Source: Minisyncoccota bacterium
GTDB taxonomy: Bacteria > Patescibacteriota > Minisyncoccia > Phycocordibacterales > Zambryskibacteraceae
Direction of reading: 5' to 3'
Assembly (NCBI GenBank): GCA_020059045.1
Contig: JAGVCW010000021.1
Span: 27,821-91,820, forward strand
DNA: 64,000 nucleotides
A program made the position numbers and the translations under genes. The notes beneath the pieces were generated by a model. That model made no database searches. It had not been told where the DNA came from and saw nothing but the letters and a program-made list of their open reading frames with translations. How positions within the stretch are numbered: position 1 is the first letter of the stretch; each line of letters starts with the position of its first letter. Of the stretch, positions 31,361-53,538 are shown piece by piece.

Positions 31361-34300
31361 ATGAAAAAGATTGTCATAGCAGTTATTTTGCTCGCAGTGT
31401 TGCTGTTGTCTGGTCCGATTTCGGCTCAAACCCTAGAAGCACAAACCATAAACGACATGTATGCGGTAGTGTTGTCGCTTCAAAACTTGATTCGTCAGTT
31501 AGTTGCGCTTGTTTCTCAGGGAGGAAATCTTGCGCAAGTTACGAACATAGTCACAGTAACTGGGTCAGTCTCTCCTGTACCAGTAACTCTTGGTGACCAG
31601 GCCAATCTTACATGGGACTCAACTAATACAACATCCTGTCTGCTTGATATAGGTACAGCAAACATAACAGGCCAGGCAGTGTCTGGCACATACACTGTGA
31701 CACCAACAAAGTCGATGGATTATATAGTCAAATGTACTGGATCGACTGGCTCAAAATTCGTAAAAGTCCCAGTAGTCGTGGTGGCAGCCTCAACTCCTTC
31801 CACCCCGTCCACTCCAGCAACTCCTTCCACCCCGTCCACACCATCTACTCCATCTACTCCATCTACACCATCTACACCATCTACACCATCAACACCAGCA
31901 ATTCCAAGTGGTCCAATAGTTTTACCAGATTTACCACAAACCTTTTCCGTGTCGGTTCCAGCTCAAACTGGAACAGTCATCTCAGTTCCGGCCGGGAACG
32001 CTGCAGCTTTTCAAGCGGCACTCAACAGTGCAGTCCTGGGTGATGTGATCGAGCTCCAAGCAGGCTCCACCTACACCGGAACATTTACGTTTCCCAATAA
32101 AACTTCTGGCAGCGGCTGGATTACAGTACGCTCCAGTGCCCACAACAGTCTCCCTCAAGGAATTCGAGTAGACCCCGGGGATGTTTCTAAAATGGCTAAA
32201 ATTATCACTAATGCCGTTGGATCAGGGGGGGCAGCATCAGGTTCTGCTATAATTTTTGCTAATAGTGCTCATCATTATTATCTACTAGGCTTAGAAGTGA
32301 CTGCGGCCACTGCAGCCAAGATTGCCACAGGTCCTACTATCCAGATGGACTTTACTACTCCTCTTTCTAATCAGCCCACGAACATTACACTCGATCGCAT
32401 GTATGTTCACGGTCATTCTAATTTAGACATGACCAGATGTATTCTAGCCAACGGTGCCTACATCGCTGTTATCAATAGTTATGTTTCTGAATGTCACTCT
32501 GGAGCGGATGCTCAAGCCATCGAAGTATGGACTGGATCTGGACCATTTAAATTTGTAAATAACCACCTGGAAGCGTCCGGCGAAAATATCATGTTCGGGG
32601 GTGCAGATCCCAAAGTGCAAGGACTCATTCCGTCGGACGCCGAAATTCGTGGAAATTATATTTATACTCCCATTGCCTGGGGGCCCTCGACTCCGTGGAC
32701 TAGAAAAAACTTATTTGAGACTAAAAATGCGCAAAGAGTACTTCTCGAAGGTAATATTCTAGATGGATCTTGGGCAGATGGGCAAGTGGGGTATGCTATT
32801 GTGCTCAAATCTTCAGATCAAGGAGGTGTTGGCACCGGGTGTACTTGGTGTGCATCAAAAGATATTACCGTAAGGTACAACATTATTCGCAATGCAGCCG
32901 GTACAGTGGATATAAGTGGAAAGCAAAACGCTATCGGTACTGCTCCGGCCCTTACCGAACGAATCCTAATTGAACACAACATTTTTGAAAATATTAATGT
33001 TGCCCCATACACCGGGGCTGCCCGACTGCTTAGTTTTAGCCTCGATGTGCGTGATCTTATATATAGGAATAACACTGTTAATACCACGGGCTATCTTCAG
33101 GGTATGATATTAGTGGGTGGAACTCCATCGAACTCTCTGAGTTTCCCGGGTGTCACAAACTTTGAATACAAGGACAATATCACTCCTTTTGGAGAATTCG
33201 GTATATTTGCCACTAACCTAATCGGGGAAGCCCTTTTTGCTGGCTCGCCAAACATTGCTGGTATCTCTAATTATTCGGGTAACGTGACTTACAACAATAC
33301 GTCAGCAAATAAGTACAATGCAACTACTCATCCCACGACTAAACTTTATTCAAGTTACAGCGCAGCAGTGGCCAGTGGTAAAGGCGCAAATACAGCGGCT
33401 GTGCTTGCGGCTACTAAGAATGCGCAAAACGGCGGAGGCGCTGGGACCCAGCCACCTCCTCCACCTCCTCCACCCCCGCCTAACACAACTGTTCCTACCC
33501 CTCCTTCTCCCGTTGCCATTACAACCTATGTTACACCTCCGGCAAACGGAGAGTCGACGCCTCCTTCTGCGGTAAAAAATTTACGTACTTGGGGAGTGTG
33601 CGACAACATGATCGGAGTTACTTGGGATCACGCTACAGATAATTACGGAGTGGCGGGTTATATTATTTCTCGAGACGGACAACCCTATACTATGACGGTG
33701 AGAAGTAGACCTCTCGGCACAACCGGAGGTGTTCCCAACAATACTGCCACCACCATAAGAAATTGGGTCACTGACTCCGGCCGGCAACCCAACACCTCGC
33801 ATTCTTACTCCGTGCAAGCGTTCGATACCTCCAACAACAAAGGCCCCGTGGCTACTTTCTCTGCCAAGACATCAACGGGCGGTTGTTTTGACCCGACCCC
33901 CCCAGTGCCGATGAATCTTAGACTTACAGGTTCGACATTAAATAGCGCGGGGTTAACTTGGGATCCCGTTACAGATTCCCGTTATAACGTAGTTCAATAT
34001 AGAATATATCTGGATTTTCCGCTCTTTACGCCTTTTCCTTTTCCCGCAGCACCTACATTTATGAATCCTGCTACTCCTCCTTTTGTCTATGGGAATCTTC
34101 CCTCAGCTCCTAGTCACAATTTCTTTGTTTCCTCTCGTAGCAACCTTGGTAAAGAGGGTGACTGGACTATGCCTCTTATTATGACTCCCGGTCAAACCAC
34201 GCCTGCTCCTACCGTGATGCTATCCGCTTCACCAAGCTCTGTGATTCCAGGTGGACAAACAATTCTCACCTGGTCTTCTACTAATGCAACAAGCTGTACC

Positions 34301-35746
34301 GCAAGCGGCGGGTGGTCTGGTTCGCAAGCTTTAGTCGGGACTCTTACAATCACACCCATAACAAGTTCACCATACACACTTTCATGTAGTGGAGCAGGTG
34401 GATCATCAATTAAATCAGTAACGGTTACTGTTGGTGGAATCATACCTCCACCACCAAACCCATTGTTTAGTATAGGAGATAGAGCAGAAACCACAGCTAA
34501 CCTAAATGTTCGATCTGGCCCAAGTGTCGATGCAACAGTTTTTGGTATCCAATCTCTTGGATCACTTGGCACCATTATTGAAGGACCAAGTATAGGTTCA
34601 ATTTACACTTGGTGGAATATTAACTTCGATGCGGGTGTAGATGGATGGAGTGCAGAAAGTTTCCTAAAGAAATCTACCATCTCGACACCACCTCCAGCTA
34701 GTCAACCCGTTGTTACTCTTTCTGTTTCACCTTCCACAATCACTTCTGGTTCGCCAGCAACTCTCACCTGGTCTTCTACTAATGCAACAAGCTGTACTGC
34801 AAGCAGTGGGTGGTCTGGTTCTAAGTCCACGTCTGGTGTGCATGGTATTGCTCCTGCTACAAACACTACGTATACACTCTCATGTAGTGGGGGAGGTGGA
34901 TCGTCAAGTAAATCTGTAACAGTCACAGTAATATCTACTACTCCAACTCCAACACCTAGTGATCCTACGCCTACTGACCCAACCCCGACTCCAACTCCAA
35001 CTCCTACACCTAATCCCGTTCCTACCCCAGGAGATGGCCAGGTATGTGCTCAAGTTGCAACATGGGCTAAAAGTCCATCAGGACAAATTAGGCAGTTCCC
35101 AAGTGCATGTATTCCAAGTGGTTGGGTCGTAATAGCATCTCCACTTATAGAAATTCCTAAAATTCCTACGACTCCAATTCCACCTGTTGGAGAGGTTCCT
35201 ACTATCCCAACAACTGAATCTCCAAGAACAGTTATTACTAAACAGCTTTACTTTGGAGTATCTGATCCCCAAGTTACAGCTCTTCAGATTTTCTTGAGGT
35301 CAAAAGGACTGTATTCAGATGACATTACTGGATTCTTCGGTACAAAAACTCTTCAATCTGTGCGTCTATACCAGACATCAAAGGGGATAGATGCGACAGG
35401 TGCTGTGGGCCCACAAACAAGAGCATCAATATCGGCTGAGACGACAGGTATCACTACGCCATCTACACCAACGACGCAAGCCCCAAGCGCACCTACGACC
35501 GGTTCGCTACCAAGAACACTGTATCGAGGTATATCAGGTAGTGATGTTTCATCTCTACAGACCATACTTATGAACCTGGGATATTACAATGACGAGATTA
35601 CAGGATACTTCGGTGTGAAAACGGAAGCGGCAGTTCAGGCATTCCAGAGAGCAAATGGAATAGTATCTTCAGGTAGTCCTGGTACTACTGGGTATGGGCT
35701 CGCAGGGCAACTAACAAGAGCAAAACTTATTGAACTAAGCCAATAA
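31361..35746 (+). CDS. Giant secreted cell-surface protein with C-terminal peptidoglycan-binding domains
   Basis: Signal peptide MKKIVIAVILLAVLLLSGPISAQT. (STP)n linker, parallel beta-helix/pectate-lyase-like repeats, Pro10 tract, FN3-like, Ig-like (SSTNATSCTASGGWSG), SH3b-like and PT-rich linker modules. Two C-terminal PG_binding_1-like domains (ITGFFG / ITGYFG motifs). 1461 aa. Confidence 0.85.
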   Translation: MKKIVIAVILLAVLLLSGPISAQTLEAQTINDMYAVVLSLQNLIRQLVALVSQGGNLAQVTNIVTVTGSVSPVPVTLGDQANLTWDSTNTTSCLLDIGTANITGQAVSGTYTVTPTKSMDYIVKCTGSTGSKFVKVPVVVVAASTPSTPSTPATPSTPSTPSTPSTPSTPSTPSTPSTPAIPSGPIVLPDLPQTFSVSVPAQTGTVISVPAGNAAAFQAALNSAVLGDVIELQAGSTYTGTFTFPNKTSGSGWITVRSSAHNSLPQGIRVDPGDVSKMAKIITNAVGSGGAASGSAIIFANSAHHYYLLGLEVTAATAAKIATGPTIQMDFTTPLSNQPTNITLDRMYVHGHSNLDMTRCILANGAYIAVINSYVSECHSGADAQAIEVWTGSGPFKFVNNHLEASGENIMFGGADPKVQGLIPSDAEIRGNYIYTPIAWGPSTPWTRKNLFETKNAQRVLLEGNILDGSWADGQVGYAIVLKSSDQGGVGTGCTWCASKDITVRYNIIRNAAGTVDISGKQNAIGTAPALTERILIEHNIFENINVAPYTGAARLLSFSLDVRDLIYRNNTVNTTGYLQGMILVGGTPSNSLSFPGVTNFEYKDNITPFGEFGIFATNLIGEALFAGSPNIAGISNYSGNVTYNNTSANKYNATTHPTTKLYSSYSAAVASGKGANTAAVLAATKNAQNGGGAGTQPPPPPPPPPPNTTVPTPPSPVAITTYVTPPANGESTPPSAVKNLRTWGVCDNMIGVTWDHATDNYGVAGYIISRDGQPYTMTVRSRPLGTTGGVPNNTATTIRNWVTDSGRQPNTSHSYSVQAFDTSNNKGPVATFSAKTSTGGCFDPTPPVPMNLRLTGSTLNSAGLTWDPVTDSRYNVVQYRIYLDFPLFTPFPFPAAPTFMNPATPPFVYGNLPSAPSHNFFVSSRSNLGKEGDWTMPLIMTPGQTTPAPTVMLSASPSSVIPGGQTILTWSSTNATSCTASGGWSGSQALVGTLTITPITSSPYTLSCSGAGGSSIKSVTVTVGGIIPPPPNPLFSIGDRAETTANLNVRSGPSVDATVFGIQSLGSLGTIIEGPSIGSIYTWWNINFDAGVDGWSAESFLKKSTISTPPPASQPVVTLSVSPSTITSGSPATLTWSSTNATSCTASSGWSGSKSTSGVHGIAPATNTTYTLSCSGGGGSSSKSVTVTVISTTPTPTPSDPTPTDPTPTPTPTPTPNPVPTPGDGQVCAQVATWAKSPSGQIRQFPSACIPSGWVVIASPLIEIPKIPTTPIPPVGEVPTIPTTESPRTVITKQLYFGVSDPQVTALQIFLRSKGLYSDDITGFFGTKTLQSVRLYQTSKGIDATGAVGPQTRASISAETTGITTPSTPTTQAPSAPTTGSLPRTLYRGISGSDVSSLQTILMNLGYYNDEITGYFGVKTEAAVQAFQRANGIVSSGSPGTTGYGLAGQLTRAKLIELSQ

Positions 35747-35767
35747 GAAAAGATAACAAAAAATCTT

Positions 35768-35803
35768 GTCTACTTAGACAAGATTTTTTGTTATAAAGAT
35801 TTT
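35768..35803. terminator. Bidirectional terminator between giant protein and rplT
   Basis: ACAAAAAATCTTGTCTA-CTTAGACAAGATTTTTTGT perfect hairpin. Confidence 0.7.
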
Positions 35804-35809
35804 AGAGAC

Positions 35810-36154
35810 TTATTTCACCTGTTCAAATATTCTTTTGAAAGTTTCTGGGTTACTTCCTGCTAATGTCGAAAGTATTTTTCTATCTATCAAAATATTTTTC
35901 TTCTTCATATTACCCATAAATTTACTGTAAGTACCTCCAAGTTCGCGAAGTGCGGCATTAATACGTACATTCCATAGGCGACGGAAATCACCCTTTTTGT
36001 CTCTTCGGTGAGCAAAGGCATAGCTTCCAGCATGAACAATCGCCTCGTTTGCCGCTCTCTCCTTCTTACTACGAGAAAAGCGATAGCCCTTTACTTGTTT
36101 AAGGATATTACGGCGTGTCTTTAATGCATTTACTCCCTTCTTTACTCTTGTCAT
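35810..36154 (-). CDS. rplT: 50S ribosomal protein L20
   Basis: MTRVKKGVNALKTRRNILKQVKGYRF... Confidence 0.93.
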   Translation of the reverse strand: MTRVKKGVNALKTRRNILKQVKGYRFSRSKKERAANEAIVHAGSYAFAHRRDKKGDFRRLWNVRINAALRELGGTYSKFMGNMKKKNILIDRKILSTLAGSNPETFKRIFEQVK

Positions 36155-36193
36155 TTGATTGATTTCTACTCGCTACTTATTACTTTCTACTAT

Positions 36194-36385
36194 TTATATA
36201 TTAACTAAATACCTGCTTCTTTCTTTGTTTGCCATTACGATTGAACCCTGGCGTTTCTTGCCAAGCTGACTGCGGCGACTTTCCTTGGCGTTGAAGTGAT
36301 TCTGGCCAGCCTTACGTGCTAAAACTTTGCCGCCCTTTGTGAGCTTCAATCTTTTCGAGTACGACTTATTGGTTTTCATTGCCAT
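36194..36385 (-). CDS. rpmI: 50S ribosomal protein L35
   Basis: MAMKTNKSYSKRLKLTKGGKVLARKAGQNHF... Confidence 0.88.
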   Translation of the reverse strand: MAMKTNKSYSKRLKLTKGGKVLARKAGQNHFNAKESRRSQLGKKRQGSIVMANKERSRYLVNI

Positions 36386-36429
36386 AGGAAGCTAATCTTA
36401 ACTATTTTTGGAATATTGTCCAGCACGTA

Positions 36430-36472
36430 CCCCACACTTACTTGGCAGTGAAACTGCCAAGTAAGTGTGGGG
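36430..36472 (-). promoter_or_regulatory. 20-bp perfect hairpin between infC and rpmI (candidate attenuator / L20 operator)
   Basis: CCCCACACTTACTTGGCAGT-GAA-ACTGCCAAGTAAGTGTGGGG. Confidence 0.5.
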
Positions 36473-36644
36473 TAACTTAACATAATAATTATTTATATAA
36501 ATCTTTGGCCCTTTTGCAGATTTAAATATTTAGTACAGTTCCTGGTCTTATTAGTACGAATGTGCGAATAGCATTGAATTACCTATACTGATAAATCTTC
36601 ATCTAAAATTCAAAAAATAAAGACCACTTGGTTGTTTGCAGGTG

Positions 36645-37184
36645 CTAATTGCTTGTATTCTGCTTTCCTCCTTCGTTTGATTTCTCAACGAGGAGGGTAA
36701 GACCTTTAGGACTTTTCTGGGGAGGTTCAGCAATTTTATACTCTTCAGAAATGAGCTTAAGGATTCGCTCAAGTCGAGTGTTTAGAAAATTTCTATCTAG
36801 GTACTTCGCACGCCCGGGTAGGAATAGATCTATCTTAACTCTGTGACCTTCTCGGAGCCACTCTGATATCTTCTTAGCTTTGAGAGCAAGGTCATGTTCT
36901 CCAGTACCGAGCTTCACTTGGGCGCTCTTCACTTCCACACTATGACTCTTTGCTTTGCTTGCTTTAGCTTTTTTGTTTTCTAGATATTGGAATTTTCCAA
37001 AATCCATTATCTTTGCTACTGGAGGGGTAGCATTGGGAGAGATTTCTATTAGATCAAGTCCGTACTCCTTGGCTTTTACAAGGGCAGATGATAGTTCCAA
37101 TACACCTATATTTTCACCTTCTGGGCCTATTACTCGTACTTCTTTCGCTTTTATTTGATGATTAATTCGTGTTTGTGTACTCAA
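36645..37184 (-). CDS. infC: Translation initiation factor IF-3
   Basis: TTG start. IF3 N- and C-terminal domains (INHQIKAKEVRVIGPEGE...). Confidence 0.9.
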   Translation of the reverse strand: MSTQTRINHQIKAKEVRVIGPEGENIGVLELSSALVKAKEYGLDLIEISPNATPPVAKIMDFGKFQYLENKKAKASKAKSHSVEVKSAQVKLGTGEHDLALKAKKISEWLREGHRVKIDLFLPGRAKYLDRNFLNTRLERILKLISEEYKIAEPPQKSPKGLTLLVEKSNEGGKQNTSN

Positions 37185-37243
37185 CAGGGTGTATGTTTAA
37201 TGTCGGTTAATACTAAATGATTATTCAATGCAGCTATAATATA

Positions 37244-37828
37244 CTAATTATTCTTTAATTCAAATGATCTCATAATGATGTCGAAATCGCGAACAATTTG
37301 ATCATTTGGGCCGAGGTAAGTGACACTCGACATAATAATATTCCCCTTGTGTGAGAAGACAATGGAGTTTCCCTCATATAGCCCAGACCACCTGTAGGCA
37401 TAACCGTCACGACTGCCAACTTTTGCTGTGAGTAGTATCCCGTCAGGTGATAATTTAAAGTTTGAGTTGCCATTGCCGCGTATCCAGCTCTCTCCAGTTT
37501 CGTTCTCTAAGTTTTGGAACACGTCGATAGTGATAGCGGTGGGCCCCTCACGTGCAGTTGTACTAGCCGTGCCTTCTCGTAGAGTCCGATTTTCTTCCGA
37601 ATCTTCTGTTAATACTAGTACAGTGTGCATTCGTTCAGAATTTCCTAAGTCCTTCTCTTCCAGAAAATAATTTTCGGGGTAATCAAATGAAAATCCAAAC
37701 AAAGATGAGTTGTACGTTTTAGTATTTACGTCTCCCGTGTTAGTCCCAAGGTTCTTTATTTGAAGTGTCCAAACAATAAGTCCAAGCACGACAATTATTA
37801 TCCCAGTTATTATAATTTTTTTAGTCAT
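37244..37828 (-). CDS. Secreted hypothetical protein
   Basis: Signal anchor MTKKIIITGIIIVVLGLIVW. Confidence 0.5.
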   Translation of the reverse strand: MTKKIIITGIIIVVLGLIVWTLQIKNLGTNTGDVNTKTYNSSLFGFSFDYPENYFLEEKDLGNSERMHTVLVLTEDSEENRTLREGTASTTAREGPTAITIDVFQNLENETGESWIRGNGNSNFKLSPDGILLTAKVGSRDGYAYRWSGLYEGNSIVFSHKGNIIMSSVTYLGPNDQIVRDFDIIMRSFELKNN

Positions 37829-37940
37829 ATAGGTATTATAGCAAAGAGGTGTTTTCTATGAGAAATATGCCTTATTTTTCAAAAAAAAAGACAAGAAACG
37901 TTAACCCACAGAAGAGAATCGGTTGTAATATAATTTATAT

Positions 37941-38204
37941 ATGGACGAATCATTCAAAAAGTTGCCGCCTGAAGATTGGGTTTCAGAAAAAACTCTTGCT
38001 CGAGAACTAAGACTTACCCCGGAAGTCATCAATCATGAGATAGGGTGGCAGATAGAGAAGATTTTAGAGGAAAGTAATGGAGAGGGGATAGAGTGGATAA
38101 ATAACCAGGAACGCTATTGGTCACCTGAAGCTGCCGAAAAAGTGAAAGCAGGTATTATTGTCCGCGTGCAGGCAATAAGTGCAACAGTAAACAAAAAACA
38201 CTAA
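37941..38204 (+). CDS. Small hypothetical protein
   Basis: 87-aa ORF. Confidence 0.35.
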   Translation: MDESFKKLPPEDWVSEKTLARELRLTPEVINHEIGWQIEKILEESNGEGIEWINNQERYWSPEAAEKVKAGIIVRVQAISATVNKKH

Positions 38205-38239
38205 GTAAAACTAGTAGGGTATAAGTTTTCTAGCTAAAT

Positions 38240-38653: not shown

Positions 38654-38764
38654 AATAAATATTATTACTTTTTAATGTGTGTATTCTACCACTCTAAATG
38701 TTTTGGGGTATAACAAAAAACCGACCACGACTGATAGAAGTGGGAGGCTTTTTGTAAGGAGTAA

Positions 38765-39019: not shown

Positions 39020-39239
39020 ATTTGTTAGTTAATGTTATTACGACCTCATGGTTATTACTACACTATGGTGGTGAAGGCTTCATGAAGAGAGTACTACAAA
39101 AATAACAATTCTTCTCATATACAAAACTGCGAGTTTTGTCCGTTAGATTGATAAAGGTGGCAATAAAAACAAGTTTGTTATAGACTCGCTATGCAAGGCC
39201 TCGATCTTGCATAGAGCTCTTTAACCACAGGAATGGGCC

Positions 39240-42019: not shown

Positions 42020-42023
42020 AAGC

Positions 42024-44892: not shown

Positions 44893-44898
44893 ATTTTT

Positions 44899-46174: not shown

Positions 46175-46693
46175 TTAGTGTTCACTACTTTCAAGTAATG
46201 AAGACTCTCTATCTTGAATTCTTATAAACGGAGTGAATATGACACCTGCTAGGAGTATACCGAGAGAGTTGCTTATAAGATCAAGCCAAGTGTCGTTTAT
46301 TGTTGTCGCCATTACGAGATTAGTATAGTTTTGAAGGAAAAATTCGAAAATCTCGTTTCCTACTCCGAGTGCAGTTACGACAAGTGCAGTAAATACTAAA
46401 AATTGGAATCTACTTACTTTTGCTCCTGAATCTTTTACAGCAAGAAAGCAAATGAGAAATGCGGCGAATCCTCCTGCAAAGCCATGCTGAATCCTGTTGG
46501 CTATTTCGCGATCCGGAGTTAGATACACGATTGCGAAAGCTACAACACAGAACAAAACTATAATTCCAAGTGATCGAGAAGTGTTGCCATCTCTCATGTT
46601 CATTTCGTTATCGTTTGCAAAAAACTTAGAGAAGAGATATCTAAGAGGGAAGTAGGCAATACAGTATGTAATTGTAGTTAAAATTGAAAACAT
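46175..46693 (-). CDS. Integral membrane protein
   Basis: ATG 46693 lies 1 nt after the ABC gene stop (translationally coupled). 5 TM helices. Confidence 0.55.
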   Translation of the reverse strand: MFSILTTITYCIAYFPLRYLFSKFFANDNEMNMRDGNTSRSLGIIVLFCVVAFAIVYLTPDREIANRIQHGFAGGFAAFLICFLAVKDSGAKVSRFQFLVFTALVVTALGVGNEIFEFFLQNYTNLVMATTINDTWLDLISNSLGILLAGVIFTPFIRIQDRESSLLESSEH

Positions 46694-46694
46694 A

Positions 46695-48476
46695 TTATTC
46701 TTCTCGTACCGCACTCTGCTGTCTCCACAAGGCCGAGTAGAGACCGTTTTTTGAAAGCAGCTCCACGTGACTACCAGCTTCGGACAAGCTGCCCTTTTCG
46801 AGAACATATATTGTATCAGCGTGTGCGATTGTTGACAGCCTATGAGCAACCATCACTATTACAAGATCAGGTTTGGTCTTTGCAATGTCTTGTATTGTTT
46901 TTGTAATCTCTTTTTCTGTAATCGAGTCTAGACTAGATGTCGCCTCGTCAAATATTATTAAGTCAGGATTTCGTAGTAGCGCTCGTGCAATGGCAAGTCT
47001 TTGGCGTTCCCCACCAGAGACCTTTATGCCACCTTCACCAATCTTTGTATCAAGTCCCTCTGTACTCCGCTCAATAATAGAAAGCACTGCCGCACCACGT
47101 AGAGCCTCCAAGCACTCTTCATCACGAGCTTTCGGATTTACGAAGAGCAAGTTTTCGCGAATGGTGCCTGCGAAGAGCTGAGTTTCTTGTGATACGTATC
47201 CTATGCGACGACGGAGAAGGTCGTAATCAATATTTTCTCCAGAAATATTATTAACTAACACTGTGCCTTCTGTGGGTTTATACAAGCCTACAAGTAGTTT
47301 AATCGTTGTAGATTTTCCAGATCCTGATGGTCCGACGAAAGCAGCTACTTCTCCCTTCTTAATTTTGAAAGTTAAATCTTTAACCGCAGGGCTATTGCCT
47401 GTTGCATGAGTGAACCCAACCCGCTCGAACCGAATACTATCGAGTGCCCCAAGCGTTGTTGGATTTTCTGGTTTTACCTCTGGCTTTTGTTTCAGTATGT
47501 CATCGAGCTTCTCCATACTTGCACGAGCTTCCTGGAAAATGTTTGCAACGGTTCCAAGCTCGCCAAGCGGTCCAAATACGAAGAAAAGATATATGTATAG
47601 ACTGAAGAATTCTCCAAACGTAATGAGCTTCTCATAAATGAGGTACATCATTATAAGAAGTAAGACTGACCGGATAGCGTTTATGAGTGTGCCCTGTACG
47701 AAGCTAAGAAGACGAATGACTTTGATCTTTCGTAGCTCAAGAGATAATATTTTTTTATTTACTATATTGAGTCGATCTGTTTCTTGGTTTTCAAGCCCTA
47801 GAGATTTTACAAGTTCTACATTGCGCAATGTTTCTGTTGTCGATCCTGAGAGAGCGGCCGTTTCTGTCACGATCTCTTTCTGCATTGCCTTTATGCGTCG
47901 CGTAAGGAAAAAGGTTACAGTTCCAACAGTAGGAATGATAAGAATATACATGAGCCCCACAAGCCAGTGAACATAGAAACCGTATCCTACTACGAAGATA
48001 ATAGAAACAAGTGGTAGAAAAATAATTCCGACAGCGGCACCTATGAGCTGTTCAGAATCCTTACGAGCCTTCTGAAGCTTTTGTAATAGCTCACCAGATC
48101 TTTCATCTTCGAATGCGGCATAGGGGAGAGAGAATGAATGCGCAACACTTTTTTCATACATTGTTGCACCCACTCGCTGAGTTACCGTGCTTAAGTAGTA
48201 GTCTTGAAAGTTTTTCGCGACTCTTGAGACAAAAGCTACACCGACGGATGCAAGAAGCAGGAGTATTATTCCCTGGAAGAATTCTTCCCGGGGTATCTCA
48301 AAGGCTCGAGACGCATAGTTGTCTACAATAAGTCTGAAAATCTGAGGGTCAAGAAGTGAGAAGACTTGGTTAATGGTTGCAAGAACAAGCGCGAAAGTAA
48401 GCATCACTTTCTGCTCCTTTAGGTATACAAGAAGTTGTCGCATGGCACCCATAATACAGCAATACCAAGTACCCAC
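46695..48476 (-). CDS. ABC transporter, fused permease/ATP-binding exporter (MsbA/ABCB-type)
   Basis: 6-TM domain plus Walker A GPSGSGKST, LSGGERQRLAIARAL signature, Walker B DEATSSLD. Confidence 0.92.
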   Translation of the reverse strand: MGTWYCCIMGAMRQLLVYLKEQKVMLTFALVLATINQVFSLLDPQIFRLIVDNYASRAFEIPREEFFQGIILLLLASVGVAFVSRVAKNFQDYYLSTVTQRVGATMYEKSVAHSFSLPYAAFEDERSGELLQKLQKARKDSEQLIGAAVGIIFLPLVSIIFVVGYGFYVHWLVGLMYILIIPTVGTVTFFLTRRIKAMQKEIVTETAALSGSTTETLRNVELVKSLGLENQETDRLNIVNKKILSLELRKIKVIRLLSFVQGTLINAIRSVLLLIMMYLIYEKLITFGEFFSLYIYLFFVFGPLGELGTVANIFQEARASMEKLDDILKQKPEVKPENPTTLGALDSIRFERVGFTHATGNSPAVKDLTFKIKKGEVAAFVGPSGSGKSTTIKLLVGLYKPTEGTVLVNNISGENIDYDLLRRRIGYVSQETQLFAGTIRENLLFVNPKARDEECLEALRGAAVLSIIERSTEGLDTKIGEGGIKVSGGERQRLAIARALLRNPDLIIFDEATSSLDSITEKEITKTIQDIAKTKPDLVIVMVAHRLSTIAHADTIYVLEKGSLSEAGSHVELLSKNGLYSALWRQQSAVREE

Positions 48477-48490
48477 AAAATATTTATGAT

Positions 48491-48530
48491 AACAAAACTA
48501 CTCCGTCACGCCGTGACGGAGTAGTTTTGT
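48491..48530. terminator. Perfect 20-bp inverted repeat terminator
   Basis: AACAAAACTACTCCGTCACG|CCGTGACGGAGTAGTTTTGTT. Confidence 0.7.
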
Positions 48531-48538
48531 TATAGAGC

Positions 48539-48739
48539 CTACATTGATGGCCGAGAATCGCAATCTCTGCAATTCTTTTTGTGTGTGAAGATTTCGTAAA
48601 TAGCGGCAAGACCTACAAGGACGTATATGATTTTTACAATCATAGCCGGGATTCCCCAAGATCCTAGTCCATAGCTAAATGCTTCGAGAAGCCAGTTTAA
48701 GCCCCCAATAATAAGTAAAACGAAAGCAACTTTATGCAT
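48539..48739 (-). CDS. DUF378 family small membrane protein
   Basis: LLIIGGLNWLLEAF...IIYVLVGLAAIYEIF. Confidence 0.7.
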   Translation of the reverse strand: MHKVAFVLLIIGGLNWLLEAFSYGLGSWGIPAMIVKIIYVLVGLAAIYEIFTHKKNCRDCDSRPSM

Positions 48740-48801
48740 AATTTCTTTCTAATTAATAATTTGAAACTACGTTTAGTATATCAAGTTATGCAAGAATATT
48801 T

Positions 48802-48875
48802 GTCCACCCTCCACGATTTGAACGTGGGACCCTCGAGGTATAAGCTCGATGCTCTAACCAACTGAGCTAAGGGTG
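48802..48875 (-). tRNA. tRNA-Ile, anticodon TAT (UAU)
   Basis: - strand cloverleaf: acceptor CCACCCT/AGGGTGG, D-arm GCTC/GAGC, anticodon arm TCGAG-CTTATAC-CTCGA, T-arm CCACG-TTCAAAT-CGTGG. 74 nt, no encoded CCA. Confidence 0.75.
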
Positions 48876-49053
48876 GTATAGCGCTCAAATACTATATCAA
48901 ATATGGAAATCCTTCAATTATTACAGTCGTGCGGTTAAGTGTCCCAGCTATCCACAACGTGAGTATTCACATTGTTATAACCTAAGGGTATACTTCTAAT
49001 CAAGTTGCGGTCCTGTCTTGAAACCTTATTTATTCTTAACTTCTCTTAATAAT

Positions 49054-52000
49054 ATGTTCTCTAAAAAATTGCCATTAGTAATTGGTTTTGTTTTTGCTTT
49101 TCTTTTTATTGGACTATCTGTAGATGCACAAACTACTTCTCTAAGTTTGACGAGAAACCTAAGTTTTGGTTCTAGCGGCACAGACGTCAGCTCTCTCCAA
49201 CAATTTTTAATATCACAAGGACATTTGTCTTCTGGGAACGCCACAGGTTACTTTGGCCCCTTGACTCAAGCTGCCGTGCAAAGCTTTCAGCGAGCGCAAG
49301 GGATCGTTACTACAGGAACTGTTCAGACAACTGGGTACGGTTTAGTGGGCATACGAACACGTGCAGCCTTGGCTACATTTACGGGAGCTCAAGGCACCTT
49401 TACGCAGAATGCTACTATTGGTACTACTTTTAATACCGCAGTTTCTACGACTCTACCCCCGACCGTGGATCTAAAAGTTAATGGTTCGGATGGGCCTGTC
49501 TTGTTGCCTCCGTCTATTTCGATACAAGCCCACCAACAAGCAAACTTATCCTGGTCCTCGACTAACGCTACCAGTTGTACTGCATCGGGGGGTTGGAGTG
49601 GTACCCAAAAAACTTCAGGCAGTCAGTCATTTAAACCAACAGTAAATACTCTATATATAATTACATGTACAGGATCGGGTGGAAGTGCTAGCGATGAAGT
49701 AACTGTAAATAAAATTGGGGCCCCAAGCTCAAGCATGTTTAATCTCGGGGAAGACGTTGAAACTATTTATAGTAGCGGAAATATTTTTAATTATCCCGCT
49801 CCTGACCCCAGGGGAGGTCAAAGTATGTTTGGCGGTGTAAAAGGTAGAGTTGTTGGGGGTCCAGCGGCAGGCACATGTTGTGGCCATATTTTTTGGCATG
49901 TGGATTATGTAAACGGAATGAAGGGGTGGACCGAAAAAGATAATCTTAAAAAAGCTATCATTAATTCTACCTATACTCTTTCAAATATGGGAGATGTGAT
50001 TGTAACGAAAACCAACTTCACCCAGGCTAAGATAGTTACTTTTACAATGACTGCGATTTCTGGTAAACCCGTAGTATCAGCCGTAATAAGCTCTTCCCTG
50101 CCATCTGGCGTAACAGTCAGTCCTGATCATTATAACTCTGGTAGTCATAACGCTTGTGGCGCAGACCCAAGTGCCGCAGACCCAACTTGTTCGCATAAAC
50201 CTGTTTTTTCCATAGCTAGTAACGCGGCTACCGGAGTCTTCCCAGTTACTCTGACTACTTATGGTCCCAGCGCTCCTACAGAAACCAGCACATTTAATCT
50301 GCATATTCTTCCCGCTGGAACGGCTGTTCCCACCGTATCTCTAAAAGCTAACAACACACCTGGCACACTTTCTATCACTAACGGTACCCAGATCTCTCTC
50401 ACTTGGGACTCAACCAATGTTACGAGTTGTGACCTTAGTGGAGACGGCTGGAGTGGCACAAAATATGCGGCCAAAATGCCAAGTCCAGGATTCTCTGCTA
50501 TACCGCTATCCAATAAAACCACCACATACATTATTATTTGTTCTGATGTTGCCGGCCAAAAGAGCGCGCCGAGCACGGTGGTGGTCACGACCACGGCCGG
50601 TTCTCAAACTAACAAATTTAACCAAAATGATAAGGTTGAAACCAATGCTGATGCTGTAAACGTTCGATCTACGCCGAATGGTAATCCTCCTATAGATTCT
50701 AAAAGCAAAGGAGCTAAGGGCGTGATTATGTGGGATGCTACGACAAGCGCAGGGGGTCATAATTGGTGGGAGATCAACTACGATACAGGAAAAGACGGCT
50801 GGACTGCGGAGCAGTATCTTAATCTTATATTGTCTACAGCTACTCCGCCTCCGCCACCAGGTACCCCAACAGTCGAACTTAAAGCTAATAACACTCTTGG
50901 CTCACTTTCTGTCACTAACGGTACCCAGATTTCTCTCACTTGGGTCTCCACGGATGCTACCGGTTGCGCCCTTAGTGCCAACAGCTGGAGCAGTACGAAC
51001 TTTTCGGCCCAGATGGGAAGTCCAGGATTCACTACTACTCCGTTGTCTAATACCACTACCACTTATACTATCACTTGCTATGATGCAAATGGCGTGAAAA
51101 GTGCACCAAGTACTGTAGTGGTGACAACAACTGGCTCAAGTAATACATTTAAAGACGGAGATACGGTGGAGGTGACAAACACGACCACTTCAGTCAATGT
51201 CCGCTCTTCTGCAAACGGAACAGTAATTGGCACTCAGCCACTTGGGGCTCTAGGATTAATTAAAGGTACAAGTATTAACTCTGGAGGATACGACTGGTGG
51301 AATGTGGATTACGTTCACGCCCCTGACGGCTGGACCGCAGAGCAGTTTCTTCAAAAGAATGCCGGAGGAATCCCAAGTTCCAGCAGAGTGAGTCTTCAAG
51401 CCACTCCAAATTCAGTGGCAGTCAATACCCCTGTTCTCCTTATCTGGGCACTTAGCAACTGGCCCACCAGCAGTCCCACTACTACATGTAATGCGACCGG
51501 TGGCACGGCGGGATGGCCCGGTACAAAATACGGTTTTATGACCGGCGGACAAGCTGTAGTTACTCCTACAACTGCTGGTACTCACACTTTCAACATTGAC
51601 TGTAGCGGTTATAAAGACTCGGTGACTGTGACGGTGACTACTGCGGGTTCAACCAACAAACCTCCAGTCGCGAATGCTGGCCAAGACAAAACAATCACTC
51701 TACCCACGAGCTCCGTTTCTGTGGTGAGCCCTCCAGTCGACGCAACCGATCCTGATGGTTCAAGCGACATAAATACCCATACCTGGTCTTTCGTCTCTGG
51801 TCCTGCTGGTGTTACTCCAGGCATCGCCGCTCCCGGCAACAAGAACAGTACTTTTTCTGGTCTTACTGTTGCAGGTACCTACACTTTCCGCTTCACCGTG
51901 GAAGATAAAGGGGGACTCAGGGCAACCGATGACATGAATGTAGTTGTTTTAACAAGTGGCACGCAGTCATCGGGTCCAGTTGTCGATCTAAAAGCAAATG

Positions 52001-53538
52001 GTTCAAACGGACCAGTAACTCTTTCAAAGGGTGATTCGGTTCAGTTTTCTTGGACGGGATCCAACTTAGTAAATTCTTGTTCCATTAAGGACGAAAATAA
52101 TAGCACTATATCTGGGGGGACAGGACTCAATCCTTTGGGGGGTACTCTCACTCTAGTAAATCTTACTTCTACACACACCTATACAATTACTTGTTTTACA
52201 AGTAACAACAGTACTGCAACTGATAGCGTGACGGTAATTATTTCTGGAGTATTCACAACCCCAGTTGTAGATCTCAAAGCAAATGGCTCAGACAATCCTA
52301 TAACGCTTACTGCGAACCAAGATCTTACTTTGAGTTGGACAATACAAGGAGTGTTACCAACTTGCTCATTGCGTGGTTGGGGAGTGTCCGGCTCTAATTC
52401 ATCTGGCTATGTTGAACTCTCTTCTAAAGTATTAATCGGTTCAGCATTCACTATTACCCCAACTACTGCAGGCTATCCGACTGCTGCTGGCAATATGTAC
52501 GAGATCAACTGTACAGTTTCTGGAGCAGTCACAAAGTACGATCGAGTAATAGTGACGGCAGCAGCGGTAACACCTCCAGGAGGAGGGACTACTGCATCTC
52601 CAGTAGTAACTTTATCTGCTAGTTCTGGCTCTGTAGCCGATGGTCAATCTGTTGCTCTGACTCTCACTTCTCAAAACGCTACTTACTGCACAGGAAATGT
52701 TTTTTCTGACAACAGAACTTCTGGCACGGCATATGTTGTTCCTCCCTTTGGCGGAAATACTAGCGTGGGCTACTCTGTAATATGTTACAACGGTCTTGGC
52801 GGCCCATCTAAAACTGCCTCCGTAAACGTCACCAAGTCAACGTCTGGAGGCTCACCCTCTAGCGGGGCACCGACACTTGATTTCAAAGCTGATAACTCTA
52901 AGGGGCCACTTTCTGTAGGAACTTCCGGGTCTGTATATCTCAGCTGGTCAACAACAAATGTATCTAGCTGTACGTTGAGTAATGCTGGAATATCGTACGT
53001 TTCACTTCCTAGTGGTTTCTGGAATGCAACTCCAAGTAGCTACACTTCGAAAGTCATATACACTATGAGCTGTACTGGGACAAACGGCGCTTCTATATCA
53101 GAATCAATCACCGTATATCCTGTCTACACTACAGTAAGCGTCAACAGTAGCTATCCTCTACCAAAAACTACTTATACGCTACACAATTCCCAAGACCTTA
53201 ACTTGGCTTGGAGTGCCCCAAATCTTCCAGCAGATGCACACTGTGATCTCACTTCACCTGTTAGTCTTACAAACCCCGCAGGTCAGAAGACCGGATCATG
53301 GAAGTTTACATCTACATCAACAAACTATCCTCCAAACAATGTGAGCAGCTGGTATTCACCTGGAATTGTCTACACTGTTACATGTAGTAATTCTGGCGGC
53401 ATCGTAGGCATGGCCACGGCCAATATTCTTCTTGACCCAAATACTACGAGTCTCAATAGCTCTAGTTCAAACCAACTAGCTGCTATATTTTCAGCCATAC
53501 AAAACATTTTGGCTGAGCTTAGTCTATCTGCTCGGTAG
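49054..53538 (+). CDS. Giant secreted cell-surface protein with N-terminal peptidoglycan-binding domain
   Basis: Signal peptide MFSKKLPLVIGFVFAFLFIGLSVDA (ATG 49054 within ORF 49018..). PG_binding_1-like (GYFGPLTQAAVQSFQRAQGIVTTG). More than 10 Ig-like repeats with SSTNATSCTASGGWSG motif, SH3b-like modules, PKD-like domain. ~1494 aa. Confidence 0.85.
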   Translation: MFSKKLPLVIGFVFAFLFIGLSVDAQTTSLSLTRNLSFGSSGTDVSSLQQFLISQGHLSSGNATGYFGPLTQAAVQSFQRAQGIVTTGTVQTTGYGLVGIRTRAALATFTGAQGTFTQNATIGTTFNTAVSTTLPPTVDLKVNGSDGPVLLPPSISIQAHQQANLSWSSTNATSCTASGGWSGTQKTSGSQSFKPTVNTLYIITCTGSGGSASDEVTVNKIGAPSSSMFNLGEDVETIYSSGNIFNYPAPDPRGGQSMFGGVKGRVVGGPAAGTCCGHIFWHVDYVNGMKGWTEKDNLKKAIINSTYTLSNMGDVIVTKTNFTQAKIVTFTMTAISGKPVVSAVISSSLPSGVTVSPDHYNSGSHNACGADPSAADPTCSHKPVFSIASNAATGVFPVTLTTYGPSAPTETSTFNLHILPAGTAVPTVSLKANNTPGTLSITNGTQISLTWDSTNVTSCDLSGDGWSGTKYAAKMPSPGFSAIPLSNKTTTYIIICSDVAGQKSAPSTVVVTTTAGSQTNKFNQNDKVETNADAVNVRSTPNGNPPIDSKSKGAKGVIMWDATTSAGGHNWWEINYDTGKDGWTAEQYLNLILSTATPPPPPGTPTVELKANNTLGSLSVTNGTQISLTWVSTDATGCALSANSWSSTNFSAQMGSPGFTTTPLSNTTTTYTITCYDANGVKSAPSTVVVTTTGSSNTFKDGDTVEVTNTTTSVNVRSSANGTVIGTQPLGALGLIKGTSINSGGYDWWNVDYVHAPDGWTAEQFLQKNAGGIPSSSRVSLQATPNSVAVNTPVLLIWALSNWPTSSPTTTCNATGGTAGWPGTKYGFMTGGQAVVTPTTAGTHTFNIDCSGYKDSVTVTVTTAGSTNKPPVANAGQDKTITLPTSSVSVVSPPVDATDPDGSSDINTHTWSFVSGPAGVTPGIAAPGNKNSTFSGLTVAGTYTFRFTVEDKGGLRATDDMNVVVLTSGTQSSGPVVDLKANGSNGPVTLSKGDSVQFSWTGSNLVNSCSIKDENNSTISGGTGLNPLGGTLTLVNLTSTHTYTITCFTSNNSTATDSVTVIISGVFTTPVVDLKANGSDNPITLTANQDLTLSWTIQGVLPTCSLRGWGVSGSNSSGYVELSSKVLIGSAFTITPTTAGYPTAAGNMYEINCTVSGAVTKYDRVIVTAAAVTPPGGGTTASPVVTLSASSGSVADGQSVALTLTSQNATYCTGNVFSDNRTSGTAYVVPPFGGNTSVGYSVICYNGLGGPSKTASVNVTKSTSGGSPSSGAPTLDFKADNSKGPLSVGTSGSVYLSWSTTNVSSCTLSNAGISYVSLPSGFWNATPSSYTSKVIYTMSCTGTNGASISESITVYPVYTTVSVNSSYPLPKTTYTLHNSQDLNLAWSAPNLPADAHCDLTSPVSLTNPAGQKTGSWKFTSTSTNYPPNNVSSWYSPGIVYTVTCSNSGGIVGMATANILLDPNTTSLNSSSSNQLAAIFSAIQNILAELSLSAR

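What the first reader, a model, noticed from the sequence alone, without database searches (positions are those of the whole stretch)
31361..53538. Two paralogous ~1,500-aa cell-surface proteins with PG-binding domains at opposite ends and shared Ig-like/SH3b modules
Protein 1 (31361-35746) is built as signal peptide, (STP)11 linker, parallel beta-helix (pectate-lyase-like), Pro10 tract, FN3-like, Ig-like and SH3b-like modules, PT-rich linker, then two C-terminal PG_binding_1-like domains. Protein 2 (49054-53538) is built as signal peptide, one N-terminal PG_binding_1-like domain, more than 10 Ig-like repeats, SH3b-like modules and a PKD-like domain. Both share the motif (L/I)(T/S)WSSTNATSCTASGGWSG and the SH3b-like NVRS...WW.I.Y..G.DGW.(A/T)E..L. 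The combination of cell-wall anchoring, a glycan-directed beta-helix and adhesin-like repeats fits host-attachment or cell-wall-remodelling machinery of an episymbiont. The perfect 9-bp (TCTACACCA-type) tandem repeats at 31790-31910 are candidate length-variable tracts.
Basis: partly seen in the sequence, partly recalled or inferred. Interest (0 to 1): 0.55.

Follow-up and report, generated by a model that had tools for sequence, protein, structure and literature searches.

The report
Two modular Saccharibacteria cell-surface proteins
Two separate genes of a Saccharibacteria (TM7) genome encode large secreted proteins built from a shared kit of wall-binding and Ig-like modules, one carrying a probable sugar-polymer-processing beta-helix; the architecture recurs in related bacteria, so this is an ordinary, well-described example and not a new kind of system.

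Summary

- **PG_binding_1** clears Pfam's cut-off in both proteins: two copies at the C-terminus of P1 and one at the N-terminus of P2.
- **The shared modules** model as a two-Cys Ig-like sandwich followed by an SH3b-like barrel (pLDDT 94.3).

- The two proteins are not whole-length paralogues. They share mobile modules, and their DNA matches over only 35-59 nt.
- The 13 kb between them holds unrelated housekeeping genes.
- The STP tract is an imperfect repeat.
- The FN3 assignment is weak.
- 'Pectate-lyase-like' is true only at the level of the fold.

The beta-helix belongs to a very large unnamed family (5,838 50%-identity clusters at E<=1e-30). Three of six sampled non-CPR members lie in exopolysaccharide biosynthesis loci. 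P1 keeps every invariant polar residue of the family.

P1 has a syntenic orthologue in another Saccharibacteria MAG. Close architectural twins exist in other metagenomes.

Best reading: P1 is a wall-tethered glycan-active enzyme and P2 is a non-enzymatic fibrillar stalk or adhesin. Substrate and target wall are unknown. This is a new member of a known kind, of modest interest.

The parts
31361..35746 (+). P1 gene, 1461 aa: secreted modular protein with a beta-helix and a C-terminal PGB1 pair
   Evidence: ORF; translation; syntenic orthologue in L001
31361..31426 (+). P1 signal peptide (aa 1-22, MKKIVIAVILLAVLLLSGPISA|Q)
   Evidence: Read from the sequence; the only TM-like hydrophobic window in the protein; conserved in the L001 orthologue. 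No predictor was run.
31430..31540 (+). P1 N-terminal amphipathic helix segment (aa 24-60)
   Evidence: Conserved in the L001 orthologue. Similar terminal helices occur in P0224 and P0324 and at the P2 C-terminus. Function unknown.
31553..31786 (+). P1 two-Cys Ig-like module 1 (aa 65-142)
   Evidence: HMM built from the modules, i-E 1e-24
31790..31897 (+). S/A-T-P linker, 12 tripeptides; imperfect 9-bp DNA repeat
   Evidence: TRF: 82% matches, core 94%; sequence; coordinates. The orthologue has a different T/Q-rich linker.
31901..33448 (+). Right-handed parallel beta-helix domain (aa 181-696) of a large unnamed family
33452..33481 (+). Pro10 spacer (aa 698-707)
33560..34195 (+). Two FN3-like modules (aa ~734-945), weakly supported
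   Evidence: Pfam fn3 E 0.024 and 0.026, below the cut-off. Weak PDB sequence hits to the FN3 domains of chitinase A1, HCF and titin. The region aligns at 48% identity with P0315.
34202..34438 (+). P1 two-Cys Ig-like module 2 (aa 948-1026)
   Evidence: AF2 di-module pLDDT 94.3
34457..34684 (+). P1 SH3b-like module (aa 1033-1108)
   Evidence: Pfam SH3_3 E 2e-4, below the cut-off; modelled as a small beta-barrel; Foldseek hits to SH3b-bearing lysostaphin and endolysin
34700..34936 (+). P1 two-Cys Ig-like module 3 (aa 1114-1192)
34937..35170 (+). PT-rich linker followed by a 2-Cys mini-domain (C1229...C1250, ...CIPSGW)
   Evidence: Sequence. The same mini-domain precedes the PGB1 pair in P0315.
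35228..35737 (+). Two PG_binding_1 domains (aa 1290-1361 and 1379-1459)
   Evidence: Pfam PF01471 97.2 bits, two stretches; SleB, Ldt and endolysin PGB domains in NCBIfam and PDB
35753..35794 (.). 19-bp-stem hairpin between the convergent P1 and rplT genes (terminator-like)
48966..48994 (+). Promoter-like site (TTCACA-17-TATACT) upstream of P2
   Evidence: consensus match only
49054..53538 (+). P2 gene, 1494 aa: secreted protein with an N-terminal PGB1 and a long array of beta-sandwich and SH3b-like modules; no enzymatic domain found
   Evidence: P0219, 100% identity
49054..49128 (+). P2 signal peptide (aa 1-25, ...GLSVDA|Q)
   Evidence: Sequence; the only TM-like window in the protein
49132..49383 (+). 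P2 PG_binding_1 domain (aa 27-110)
   Evidence: Pfam 46.8 bits; 58% identical to the second PGB1 of P1; PHROG endolysin families match only this stretch
49474..51645 (+). Ig1, SH3b1, an unassigned 4-Cys segment (aa 306-425), Ig2, SH3b2, Ig3, SH3b3, Ig4
   Evidence: Module HMMs; coordinates
51676..51948 (+). K319L-like PKD domain (aa 875-965)
   Evidence: Pfam PF22352 50.3 bits; PDB 6nz0 E 3.6e-9
51985..53400 (+). Five further two-Cys Ig-like modules (Ig5-Ig9; the last is degenerate)
   Evidence: Module HMM; paired Cys spacing
53446..53535 (+). P2 C-terminal S-rich segment followed by an amphipathic helix (NQLAAIFSAIQNILAELSLSAR)
   Evidence: Sequence; a similar C-terminal helix occurs in P0324. 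Function unknown.

Best explanation
P1 and P2 are two independently transcribed, Sec-exported surface proteins of a Saccharibacterium, which is a monoderm Patescibacterium. They are assembled from a toolkit of shuffled modules common in this radiation: a two-Cys Ig-like sandwich, an SH3b-like barrel, FN3/PKD modules, Pro/Thr/Ser spacers and PG_binding_1.

P1 is a wall-tethered enzyme. Its C-terminal PGB1 pair (inferred) holds it non-covalently on peptidoglycan. A stalk of beta-sandwich modules and proline-rich spacers (inferred) projects the N-terminal ~515-aa right-handed beta-helix away from the wall. That beta-helix belongs to a very large uncharacterised family. From its fold, its fully conserved polar cluster and the neighbourhoods of its relatives, it most likely cleaves or modifies an acidic exopolysaccharide or cell-surface polysaccharide, as a lyase, hydrolase or epimerase.

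P2 has no catalytic domain. It is most likely a fibrillar stalk or adhesin, anchored at its N-terminus by one PGB1 and extending through about 14 beta-rich modules.

Shown: the ORFs, the domain identities, the fold, the family size, the conservation, the synteny and the recurrence of the architecture.

Inferred: catalysis, the substrate class, which wall is bound, and the topology.
For: **Domain assignments**
- PG_binding_1 and PKD exceed Pfam's cut-offs.

**Beta-helix family**
- The family has 5,838 50%-identity cluster representatives at E<=1e-30.
- Members are fused to carbohydrate-binding modules (ricin, malectin, BACON) and to surface-retention signals (Big_2, T9SS tail).
- Three of six sampled non-CPR members lie inside exopolysaccharide loci. 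These loci encode GT4 glycosyltransferases, Wzy_C, UDP-sugar dehydrogenase, polysaccharide deacetylase, heparinase II/III-like proteins and EpsI.
- P1 keeps every near-invariant polar residue of 127 aligned members: D345, R346, H350, D383, Q385, E408, D426, K449, N450, E453, K455, R459, N465, Q475 and N507.

**Export and anchoring**
- Each protein has a signal peptide and no other hydrophobic segment, and neither has an LPXTG motif.
- PGB1 fusion to this beta-helix appears in the CPR-type hits P0224, P0249 and P0315. It is absent from the precomputed Pfam domain lists of the 120 best, mostly non-CPR, beta-helix hits. This fits PGB1 serving as the monoderm way of retaining the protein on the producer's surface.

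**Conservation of the gene**
- A syntenic orthologue exists in another Saccharibacteria MAG. It has a conserved N-terminal 700 aa and a remodelled C-terminus.
- Near full-length architectural twins exist, P0315 and P0249.

**P2**
- No enzymatic family was found in P2 with Pfam, NCBIfam, PHROGs or PDB sequences.

**Shared modules**
- The Ig-like plus SH3b-like di-module model has pLDDT 94.3.

**Literature**
- Essential adhesins and glycan-binding or glycan-degrading surface proteins are reported in Southlakia (PMC10633639).
- Expressed extracellular enzymes with PG-binding domains are reported in Patescibacteria (PMC10936435).
Against:
- No sequence-level link exists to any characterised PL, GH or epimerase family beyond a generic N-cap of about 50 aa.
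- The L001 and L002 orthologues have no Pfam-detectable PGB1, so wall tethering through PGB1 is not a conserved property of the orthologous gene.
- Three of six family contexts are not polysaccharide loci.
- P1's own neighbourhood is housekeeping and gives no functional hint.
- Nothing here distinguishes binding to the bacterium's own wall from binding to the host's wall.
Confidence: 0.6

Rival explanations
1. Host-directed weapon. The PGB1 and SH3b-like modules bind the thick peptidoglycan of the host bacterium, as cell-wall-targeting domains do in endolysins and lysostaphin. The P1 beta-helix acts like a phage tailspike depolymerase, cutting the host's capsule or wall polysaccharide to open the attachment site. 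P2 is the matching host adhesin.
Against: No PHROG family matches the beta-helix. The family is overwhelmingly found in free-living soil phyla, and half of the sampled members sit in the producer's own exopolysaccharide loci. If both ends bind the host, nothing would retain the protein on the epibiont, because no other anchor exists. The orthologue lacks PGB1.
Confidence: 0.25
2. Self-directed polysaccharide maturation. The P1 beta-helix trims or epimerises the Saccharibacterium's own exopolysaccharide at the cell surface, like AlgG/AlgE or RbmB. It is only indirectly related to host interaction.
Against: No exopolysaccharide genes lie near P1 in the annotated parts of the 64-kb window. One relative MAG carries at least three copies with different module sets, which is more than one exopolysaccharide pathway would need.
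Confidence: 0.2
3. Non-catalytic adhesin or surface-layer reading. The beta-helix is a binding scaffold, like PfbA or autotransporter passenger domains. P1 and P2 together form part of a proteinaceous surface coat (S-layer-like).
Against: About 20 polar residues are 95-100% conserved across phyla over consecutive coils, which is typical of an active site and not of a diverse adhesin surface. There are no SLH or other S-layer anchoring domains. Paired cysteines in every module are unusual for S-layer proteins. The Foldseek E-values are weak.
Confidence: 0.1
4. P1 and P2 are true paralogues from a recent duplication within this genome.
For: The identical 17-aa motif WSSTNATSCTASGGWSG occurs in both proteins, and their PGB1 domains are 58% identical.
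Against: DNA similarity is limited to 35-59 nt at 73-83% identity. The motif is the consensus of a module found across phyla. Domain order and content differ, and P2 lacks the beta-helix, FN3 and mini-Cys modules. P1 has its own syntenic orthologue and P2 its own closest relative, P0243.
Confidence: 0.03

Closest known systems
Wall-anchored multimodular polysaccharide-active enzymes of monoderm bacteria (beta-helix lyases or hydrolases carrying SLH, LysM or PG-binding anchors), and beta-helix exopolysaccharide-processing enzymes such as the AlgE4/AlgG C5-epimerases, PL6/PL31 alginate lyases and Vibrio RbmB
   Different: Sequence identity is 13-17%. The only sequence-level match is the N-cap. 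The catalytic residues of those families were not identified here. The family has no Pfam, NCBIfam or, as far as tested, structural representative.
Fibrillar adhesin-like proteins (anchor, then a stalk of tandem Ig-like/FN3/PKD domains, then an adhesive tip)
   Same: P2 has one anchor-type domain (PGB1) and about 14 tandem beta-rich modules. P1 has a stalk between its anchor and its functional head.
   Different: The anchor is non-covalent PG_binding_1 and not LPXTG. In P2 the anchor is N-terminal. No recognisable adhesive tip domain is present in P2. SH3b-like modules are interspersed along the stalk.
Cell-wall-targeting domains of endolysins, SleB, L,D-transpeptidases and lysostaphin (PG_binding_1, SH3b)
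   Same: PG_binding_1 exceeds the Pfam threshold, and matches SleB, Ldt and endolysin PGB domains. The SH3b-like barrel resembles those of lysostaphin and the phiSM101 endolysin.
   Different: No peptidoglycan hydrolase catalytic domain is attached. The PGB1 variant carries an extra G-x-x-TTGYG-x-x-G insertion, also seen in the two relatives whose sequences were read, P0224 and P0243.
Essential surface adhesins and glycan-binding proteins of Southlakia epibionticum (PMC10633639), and PG-binding extracellular enzymes expressed by Patescibacteria on methanogens (PMC10936435)
   Same: Same radiation, same class of large secreted modular proteins, same proposed role at the cell-cell interface.
   Different: Homology to those specific proteins was not tested here. 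The domains named in the papers (VCBS, dockerin, FN3) differ from the beta-helix and two-Cys Ig set.

Membership tests
PG_binding_1 (Pfam PF01471) | Score above Pfam's gathering cut-off (23 bits) for the three-helix PG-binding domain | tested here: met
   P1 97.2 bits with two stretches; P2 46.8 bits
PG_binding_1 (Pfam PF01471) | Actual binding to peptidoglycan | not testable with these tools
   Requires a sacculus pull-down
Right-handed parallel beta-helix (pectin-lyase-like fold) | Stack of three-stranded coils forming a right-handed solenoid | tested here: met
Pectate/alginate lyase families (PL1, PL3, PL6, PL9, PL31) | Sequence-level membership of the catalytic domain | tested here: not met
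   No Pfam or NCBIfam hit for aa 181-696. The family profile matches only residues ~3-56 of PL31 6kfn, and the corresponding N-cap of a domain at residues ~424-474 in PL6 chains. Identity is 13-17% in structural alignments.
Pectate/alginate lyase families (PL1, PL3, PL6, PL9, PL31) | Ca2+ site plus Lys/Arg Bronsted base at the positions of the family's active site | not testable with these tools
   Model coordinates could not be superposed. The conserved E408, D426, K449, K455 and R459 on successive coils are suggestive only.
Bacterial SH3 (Pfam PF08239 SH3_3) | Score above the gathering cut-off (27 bits) | tested here: not met
   P1 module 18-21.8 bits. Eight of 26 homologous modules match at E<=0.1, the best at 1.8e-5.
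Bacterial SH3 (Pfam PF08239 SH3_3) | Small SH3-type beta-barrel fold | tested here: inconclusive
   The model has pLDDT 94.3 with about 7 short strands. Foldseek hits to SH3b-bearing lysostaphin, the phiSM101 endolysin, NlpC2 and a eukaryotic SH3 have E 0.04-0.08.
Fibronectin type III (Pfam PF00041) | Score above the gathering cut-off (25 bits) | tested here: not met
   13.9-15.3 bits; PDB sequence hits to FN3 domains have E 0.009-0.03
K319L-like PKD (Pfam PF22352) | Score above the gathering cut-off (27 bits) | tested here: met
   P2 aa 875-965, 50.3 bits; 6nz0 E 3.6e-9
Sortase-anchored (LPXTG) surface proteins | C-terminal LPXTG motif, hydrophobic helix and positively charged tail | tested here: not met
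   Neither protein has an LPxTG-like motif or a C-terminal hydrophobic window
Fibrillar adhesin-like proteins | Anchor plus a stalk of tandem repeated beta-sandwich domains | tested here: met
   P2 has PGB1, nine two-Cys Ig-like modules, one PKD and three SH3b-like modules
Fibrillar adhesin-like proteins | Recognisable adhesive (ligand-binding) domain | tested here: not met
   No known adhesive domain was found in P2. The segment aa 306-425 is unassigned.
S-layer proteins | SLH or another S-layer anchoring domain; lattice formation | tested here: not met
   No SLH hit. Lattice formation cannot be tested here.

The most novel reading that the evidence does not exclude
The ~515-aa beta-helix is the catalytic head of an unrecognised, very large carbohydrate-active enzyme family (at least 5,800 50%-identity clusters). 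In free-living soil bacteria it processes exosortase-type exopolysaccharides. Saccharibacteria and other CPR bacteria would have captured it, multiplied it and wired it to peptidoglycan-binding stalks. On the epibiont surface it would then work as a 'cellular tailspike', depolymerising the host's surface polysaccharide at the attachment site.
Probability: 0.15. Interest if true: 0.65.

Novelty: new member of a known kind. Interest (0 to 1): 0.27.

Why it matters
Host recognition and attachment by Patescibacteria is largely unexplained beyond type IV pili. Catalogued, domain-resolved candidates such as these give concrete targets for knock-outs in the few cultivable Saccharibacteria. The wider by-product is a very large beta-helix family that has no Pfam or NCBIfam model and no match to the sequence of a solved structure beyond a ~50-residue N-terminal cap. 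It often sits in exopolysaccharide loci, and it is worth biochemical characterisation as a possible new carbohydrate-active enzyme family. As a genomic feature, the two genes are ordinary examples of a recurrent CPR surface-protein architecture.

Tried and rejected
- **Exact look-up of P1 and of P0219 for source contigs:** not on record. The organism was inferred from relatives instead.
- **Metagenome scan for P2 relatives, and a DNA pattern spanning the STP tract to look for copy-number variants:** both returned nothing. Length variability is therefore untested.
- **Sequence searches of the beta-helix against Pfam, NCBIfam, PHROGs and PDB sequences:** no family-level hit.
- **Prophage or tailspike origin:** considered and rejected. 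The context is the ribosomal-protein, SecY, NDK, IF3 and L20 core with 10-gene synteny, and there is no PHROG match.
- **An operon or 'system' linking P1 and P2:** rejected. They are 13 kb apart with unrelated genes on both strands. A terminator-like hairpin follows P1, and P2 has its own promoter-like site.
- **Recent duplication or gene conversion:** rejected by DNA comparison.
- **Other copies of these modules in the window:** none found.
- **Mapping conserved residues onto the 3-D model:** not possible, because the coordinates are not exposed.

Full report
**What is there**

The window carries two long + strand ORFs. P1 runs 31361-35746 and encodes 1461 aa. P2 is an ORF opening at TTG 49018 with an ATG at 49054, ending at 53538. 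The ATG version (1494 aa) is 100% identical to a database protein from a 103,936-bp contig (P0219), so I use it.

Each protein begins with a K-rich, hydrophobic, AxA-type leader: P1 ...GPISA|QT and P2 ...LSVDA|QT. This leader is the only TM-like hydrophobic segment in either protein, and neither has an LPXTG motif. No signal-peptide predictor was available, so export is read from the sequence.

**Context and organism**

The genes between and around P1 and P2 are housekeeping:
- EF-G, EF-Tu, L4, L2 and SecY upstream
- NDK and a beta-CASP RNase immediately before P1
- rplT and infC convergent after it
- then tmRNA, smpB, ftsH and an ABC transporter
- a tRNA-Ile just before P2, and recG after it

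A 19-bp-stem hairpin separates P1 from rplT. P2 has its own promoter-like site. The span 31361-53538 is therefore two unrelated loci, not one system.

The closest genomic relatives of P1 are two Candidatus Saccharibacteria MAGs. Locus L001 is syntenic over ten genes at 38-80% protein identity. The window is therefore from a Saccharibacterium.

**Domain map of P1**

- Signal peptide
- Amphipathic helix (aa 24-60)
- Two-Cys Ig-like module (65-142)
- S/A-T-P linker (144-179)
- Beta-helix (181-696)
- Pro10 (698-707)
- Two weakly supported FN3-like modules (~734-945)
- Ig-like module (948-1026)
- SH3b-like module (1033-1108)
- Ig-like module (1114-1192)
- PT linker
- 2-Cys mini-domain (1227-1270)
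- Two PG_binding_1 domains (1290-1361 and 1379-1459)

Support for each assignment:
- PG_binding_1 scores 97.2 bits against a cut-off of 23. It matches SleB, Ldt and endolysin PG-binding domains.
- SH3_3 (18-21.8 bits) and fn3 (13.9-15.3 bits) are below Pfam's cut-offs.
- The Ig-like module has no Pfam family.
- An AF2 model of the Ig plus SH3b di-module, built on 26 homologous di-modules, has pLDDT 94.3 and shows a 7-strand sandwich followed by a small barrel.
- Foldseek finds PKD and Ig domains, and SH3b-bearing lysostaphin, the phiSM101 endolysin and NlpC2, all at weak E-values.
- Each Ig-like module has one invariant Cys pair. This is presumably a disulfide, and CPR genomes are enriched in MdbA-like oxidoreductases (PMC6744442).

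**Domain map of P2**

- Signal peptide
- PG_binding_1 (27-110; 46.8 bits)
- Ig, SH3b, then an unassigned 4-Cys segment (306-425)
- Ig, SH3b, Ig, SH3b, Ig
- K319L-like PKD (875-965; 50.3 bits)
- Five more two-Cys Ig-like modules, the last degenerate
- An S-rich tail ending in an amphipathic helix

No catalytic family was detected with Pfam, NCBIfam, PHROGs or PDB sequences.

**Are they paralogues?**

Only in the sense that they share modules. BLASTP aligns Ig-like, SH3b-like and PGB1 modules at 36-58% identity. The rest of P1 (beta-helix, FN3-like modules, mini-domain) has no counterpart in P2. At the DNA level only 35-59 nt match, at 73-83% identity.

The motif TWSSTNATSCTASGGWSG is the consensus of a module found across phyla, including proteobacterial lipoproteins, so it is not a signature of local duplication. 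No other ORF in the window carries any of these modules.

**The repeats**

The S/A-T-P tract is encoded by an imperfect 9-bp array. TRF gives 82% matches over 10.9 copies and 94% over a 6.7-copy core. By eye there are three identical TCTACACCA units preceded by two TCTACTCCA units.

The L001 orthologue has an unrelated T/Q-rich linker of different length, so the spacer evolves freely. Strain-level copy-number variation could not be tested, because two metagenome scans returned nothing.

**The beta-helix**

Residues 181-696 have more than 566 homologues at 35-46% identity. Those that carry a source name come from Gemmatimonadota, Acidobacteriota, Planctomycetota and Doudnabacteria. An exhaustive profile search counts 11,393 50%-identity cluster representatives at E<=1e-3 and 5,838 at E<=1e-30.

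Neither Pfam nor NCBIfam has a dedicated model. Only 19 of 43 members touch the generic PF13229.

- GH87 and GH110
- the PfbA adhesin
- many phage depolymerases

At sequence level the family profile matches only the N-terminal cap (~50 aa) of PL31 and PL6 enzymes. 'Pectate-lyase-like' is therefore right for the fold only.

Three lines of evidence argue for a polysaccharide-active enzyme:
1. Family members are fused to ricin, malectin and BACON modules.
2. About 20 polar residues on consecutive coils are 95-100% conserved in 127 sequences, and all are present in P1: D345, R346, H350, D383, Q385, E408, D426, K449, N450, E453, K455, R459, N465, Q475 and N507.
3. Three of six sampled non-CPR members lie inside exopolysaccharide biosynthesis loci. 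These loci encode GT4s, Wzy_C, UDP-sugar dehydrogenase, polysaccharide deacetylase, asparagine synthase, heparinase II/III-like proteins and EpsI. The other three do not.

**Recurrence of the architecture**

The P1 orthologue in L001 (1330 aa) conserves the first ~700 aa at 49% identity: leader, helix, Ig, linker and beta-helix. It has a different C-terminal array of Ig and SH3b modules and no Pfam-detectable PGB1.

The same MAG encodes two more proteins with this beta-helix, adjacent to each other:
- P0224: leader, helix, Ig and SH3b array, beta-helix, C-terminal PGB1
- P0288: FN3, Ig and SH3b array, C-terminal beta-helix

Other relatives:
- P0315 matches almost the whole of P1 at 41-48% identity, including the mini-Cys domain and the PGB1 pair.
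- P0249 has beta-helix, Ig×2, SH3b, Ig×4 and PGB1×2.
- P0243, annotated 'peptidoglycan-binding protein', resembles P2 but has PGB1 at both ends.

'PGB at opposite ends' is therefore one outcome of free module shuffling. PGB1 fusions to the beta-helix appear among the CPR-type hits. They are absent from the precomputed Pfam domain lists of the 120 best, mostly non-CPR, beta-helix hits, which instead carry Big_2 or T9SS tails. I take this as modest evidence that PGB1 is the monoderm device for retaining the enzyme on the producer's own wall.

**Mechanism**

Shown: the secretion signals, the domain identities, the fold, the conservation, the family contexts and the recurrence.

Inferred: P1 is held on peptidoglycan by its C-terminal PGB1 pair. 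A stalk of sandwich modules and Pro-rich spacers presents a beta-helix that cleaves or modifies an acidic surface polysaccharide or exopolysaccharide. P2 is a non-enzymatic fibre anchored at its N-terminus.

Undecided:
- whether the wall and the glycan belong to the epibiont or to its host
- whether the beta-helix is a lyase, a hydrolase, an epimerase, or (less likely) a non-catalytic binder
- what the terminal amphipathic helices do

**Comparison with what is known, and novelty**

Large secreted glycan-binding or glycan-degrading proteins and adhesins are already reported as essential for epibiotic growth in Southlakia (PMC10633639). PG-binding extracellular enzymes have been proposed as attachment factors in other Patescibacteria (PMC10936435). 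The architecture seen here recurs in many metagenomic proteins.

I rate the finding as a new member of a known kind, with interest about 0.27. The most interesting residue is the size and anonymity of the beta-helix family, together with its link to exopolysaccharide loci.

Noticed in passing
window 61097-61186 (-): A type-II (long variable arm) tRNA-Ser is called with anticodon ACT by ARAGORN. Reading the loop by hand (TTACTAA between stems ACGGT and ACCGT) agrees. An unmodified A34 in a bacterial tRNA-Ser is unusual; GCU is the norm for AGY codons. AGT and AGC are both used in the genes checked.
   Followed up: partly
window 31430-31540 (P1 aa 24-60) and 53470-53535 (P2 C-terminus): Short amphipathic helices with a similar pattern (..L/IQNL/I..L..) sit at the free end opposite the PGB1 anchor in both proteins. 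Similar helices occur at the N-terminus of P0224 and of the L001 orthologue, and at the C-terminus of P0324. They may be an oligomerisation or docking element. Their function is unknown.
   Followed up: partly
window 35039-35170 (P1 aa 1227-1270): A 2-Cys mini-domain (C-x20-C-IPSGW) lies immediately before the PGB1 pair. The same element is found at the same place in P0315 and has no Pfam family.
   Followed up: partly
window 35228-35737 and 49132-49383: The second PGB1 of P1 and the PGB1 of P2 share an insertion (G-x-x-TTGYG-x-x-G) before the last helix. It is also present in the two relatives whose sequences were read, P0224 and P0243, so it may be a lineage-specific PGB1 variant.
   Followed up: no
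window 10187-11155 (-): A MYG1/UPF0160-family exonuclease gene lies on the opposite strand inside the ribosomal-protein cluster, between L2 and downstream genes.
   Followed up: no
window 32001-34000 and 50001-52000: The central parts of both genes have GC 0.475-0.485, against 0.39-0.42 for their neighbours. This is probably a consequence of T/S/G/P/A-rich composition and not of foreign origin, but it was not tested.
   Followed up: no
L007, L008, L010 (non-CPR loci): The beta-helix family gene recurs in a conserved exopolysaccharide locus: heparinase II/III-like, asparagine synthase, GT4s, polysaccharide deacetylase, and Wzy_C or EpsI, which resembles exosortase-type systems. Big_2-rich giant proteins lie next to it in L007 and L008.
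   Followed up: partly
L005 (CAZRVE010000003.1) 1775-9642: A related Saccharibacteria MAG has two adjacent genes (1446 and 1128 aa) that both carry the same beta-helix family domain with different module orders. This is in addition to the syntenic P1 orthologue on another contig, so the MAG has at least three copies.
   Followed up: partly
window 48802-48876 (-): A tRNA-Ile with anticodon TAT (UAU) lies directly upstream of P2. ATA codons are common in the genes checked.
   Followed up: no
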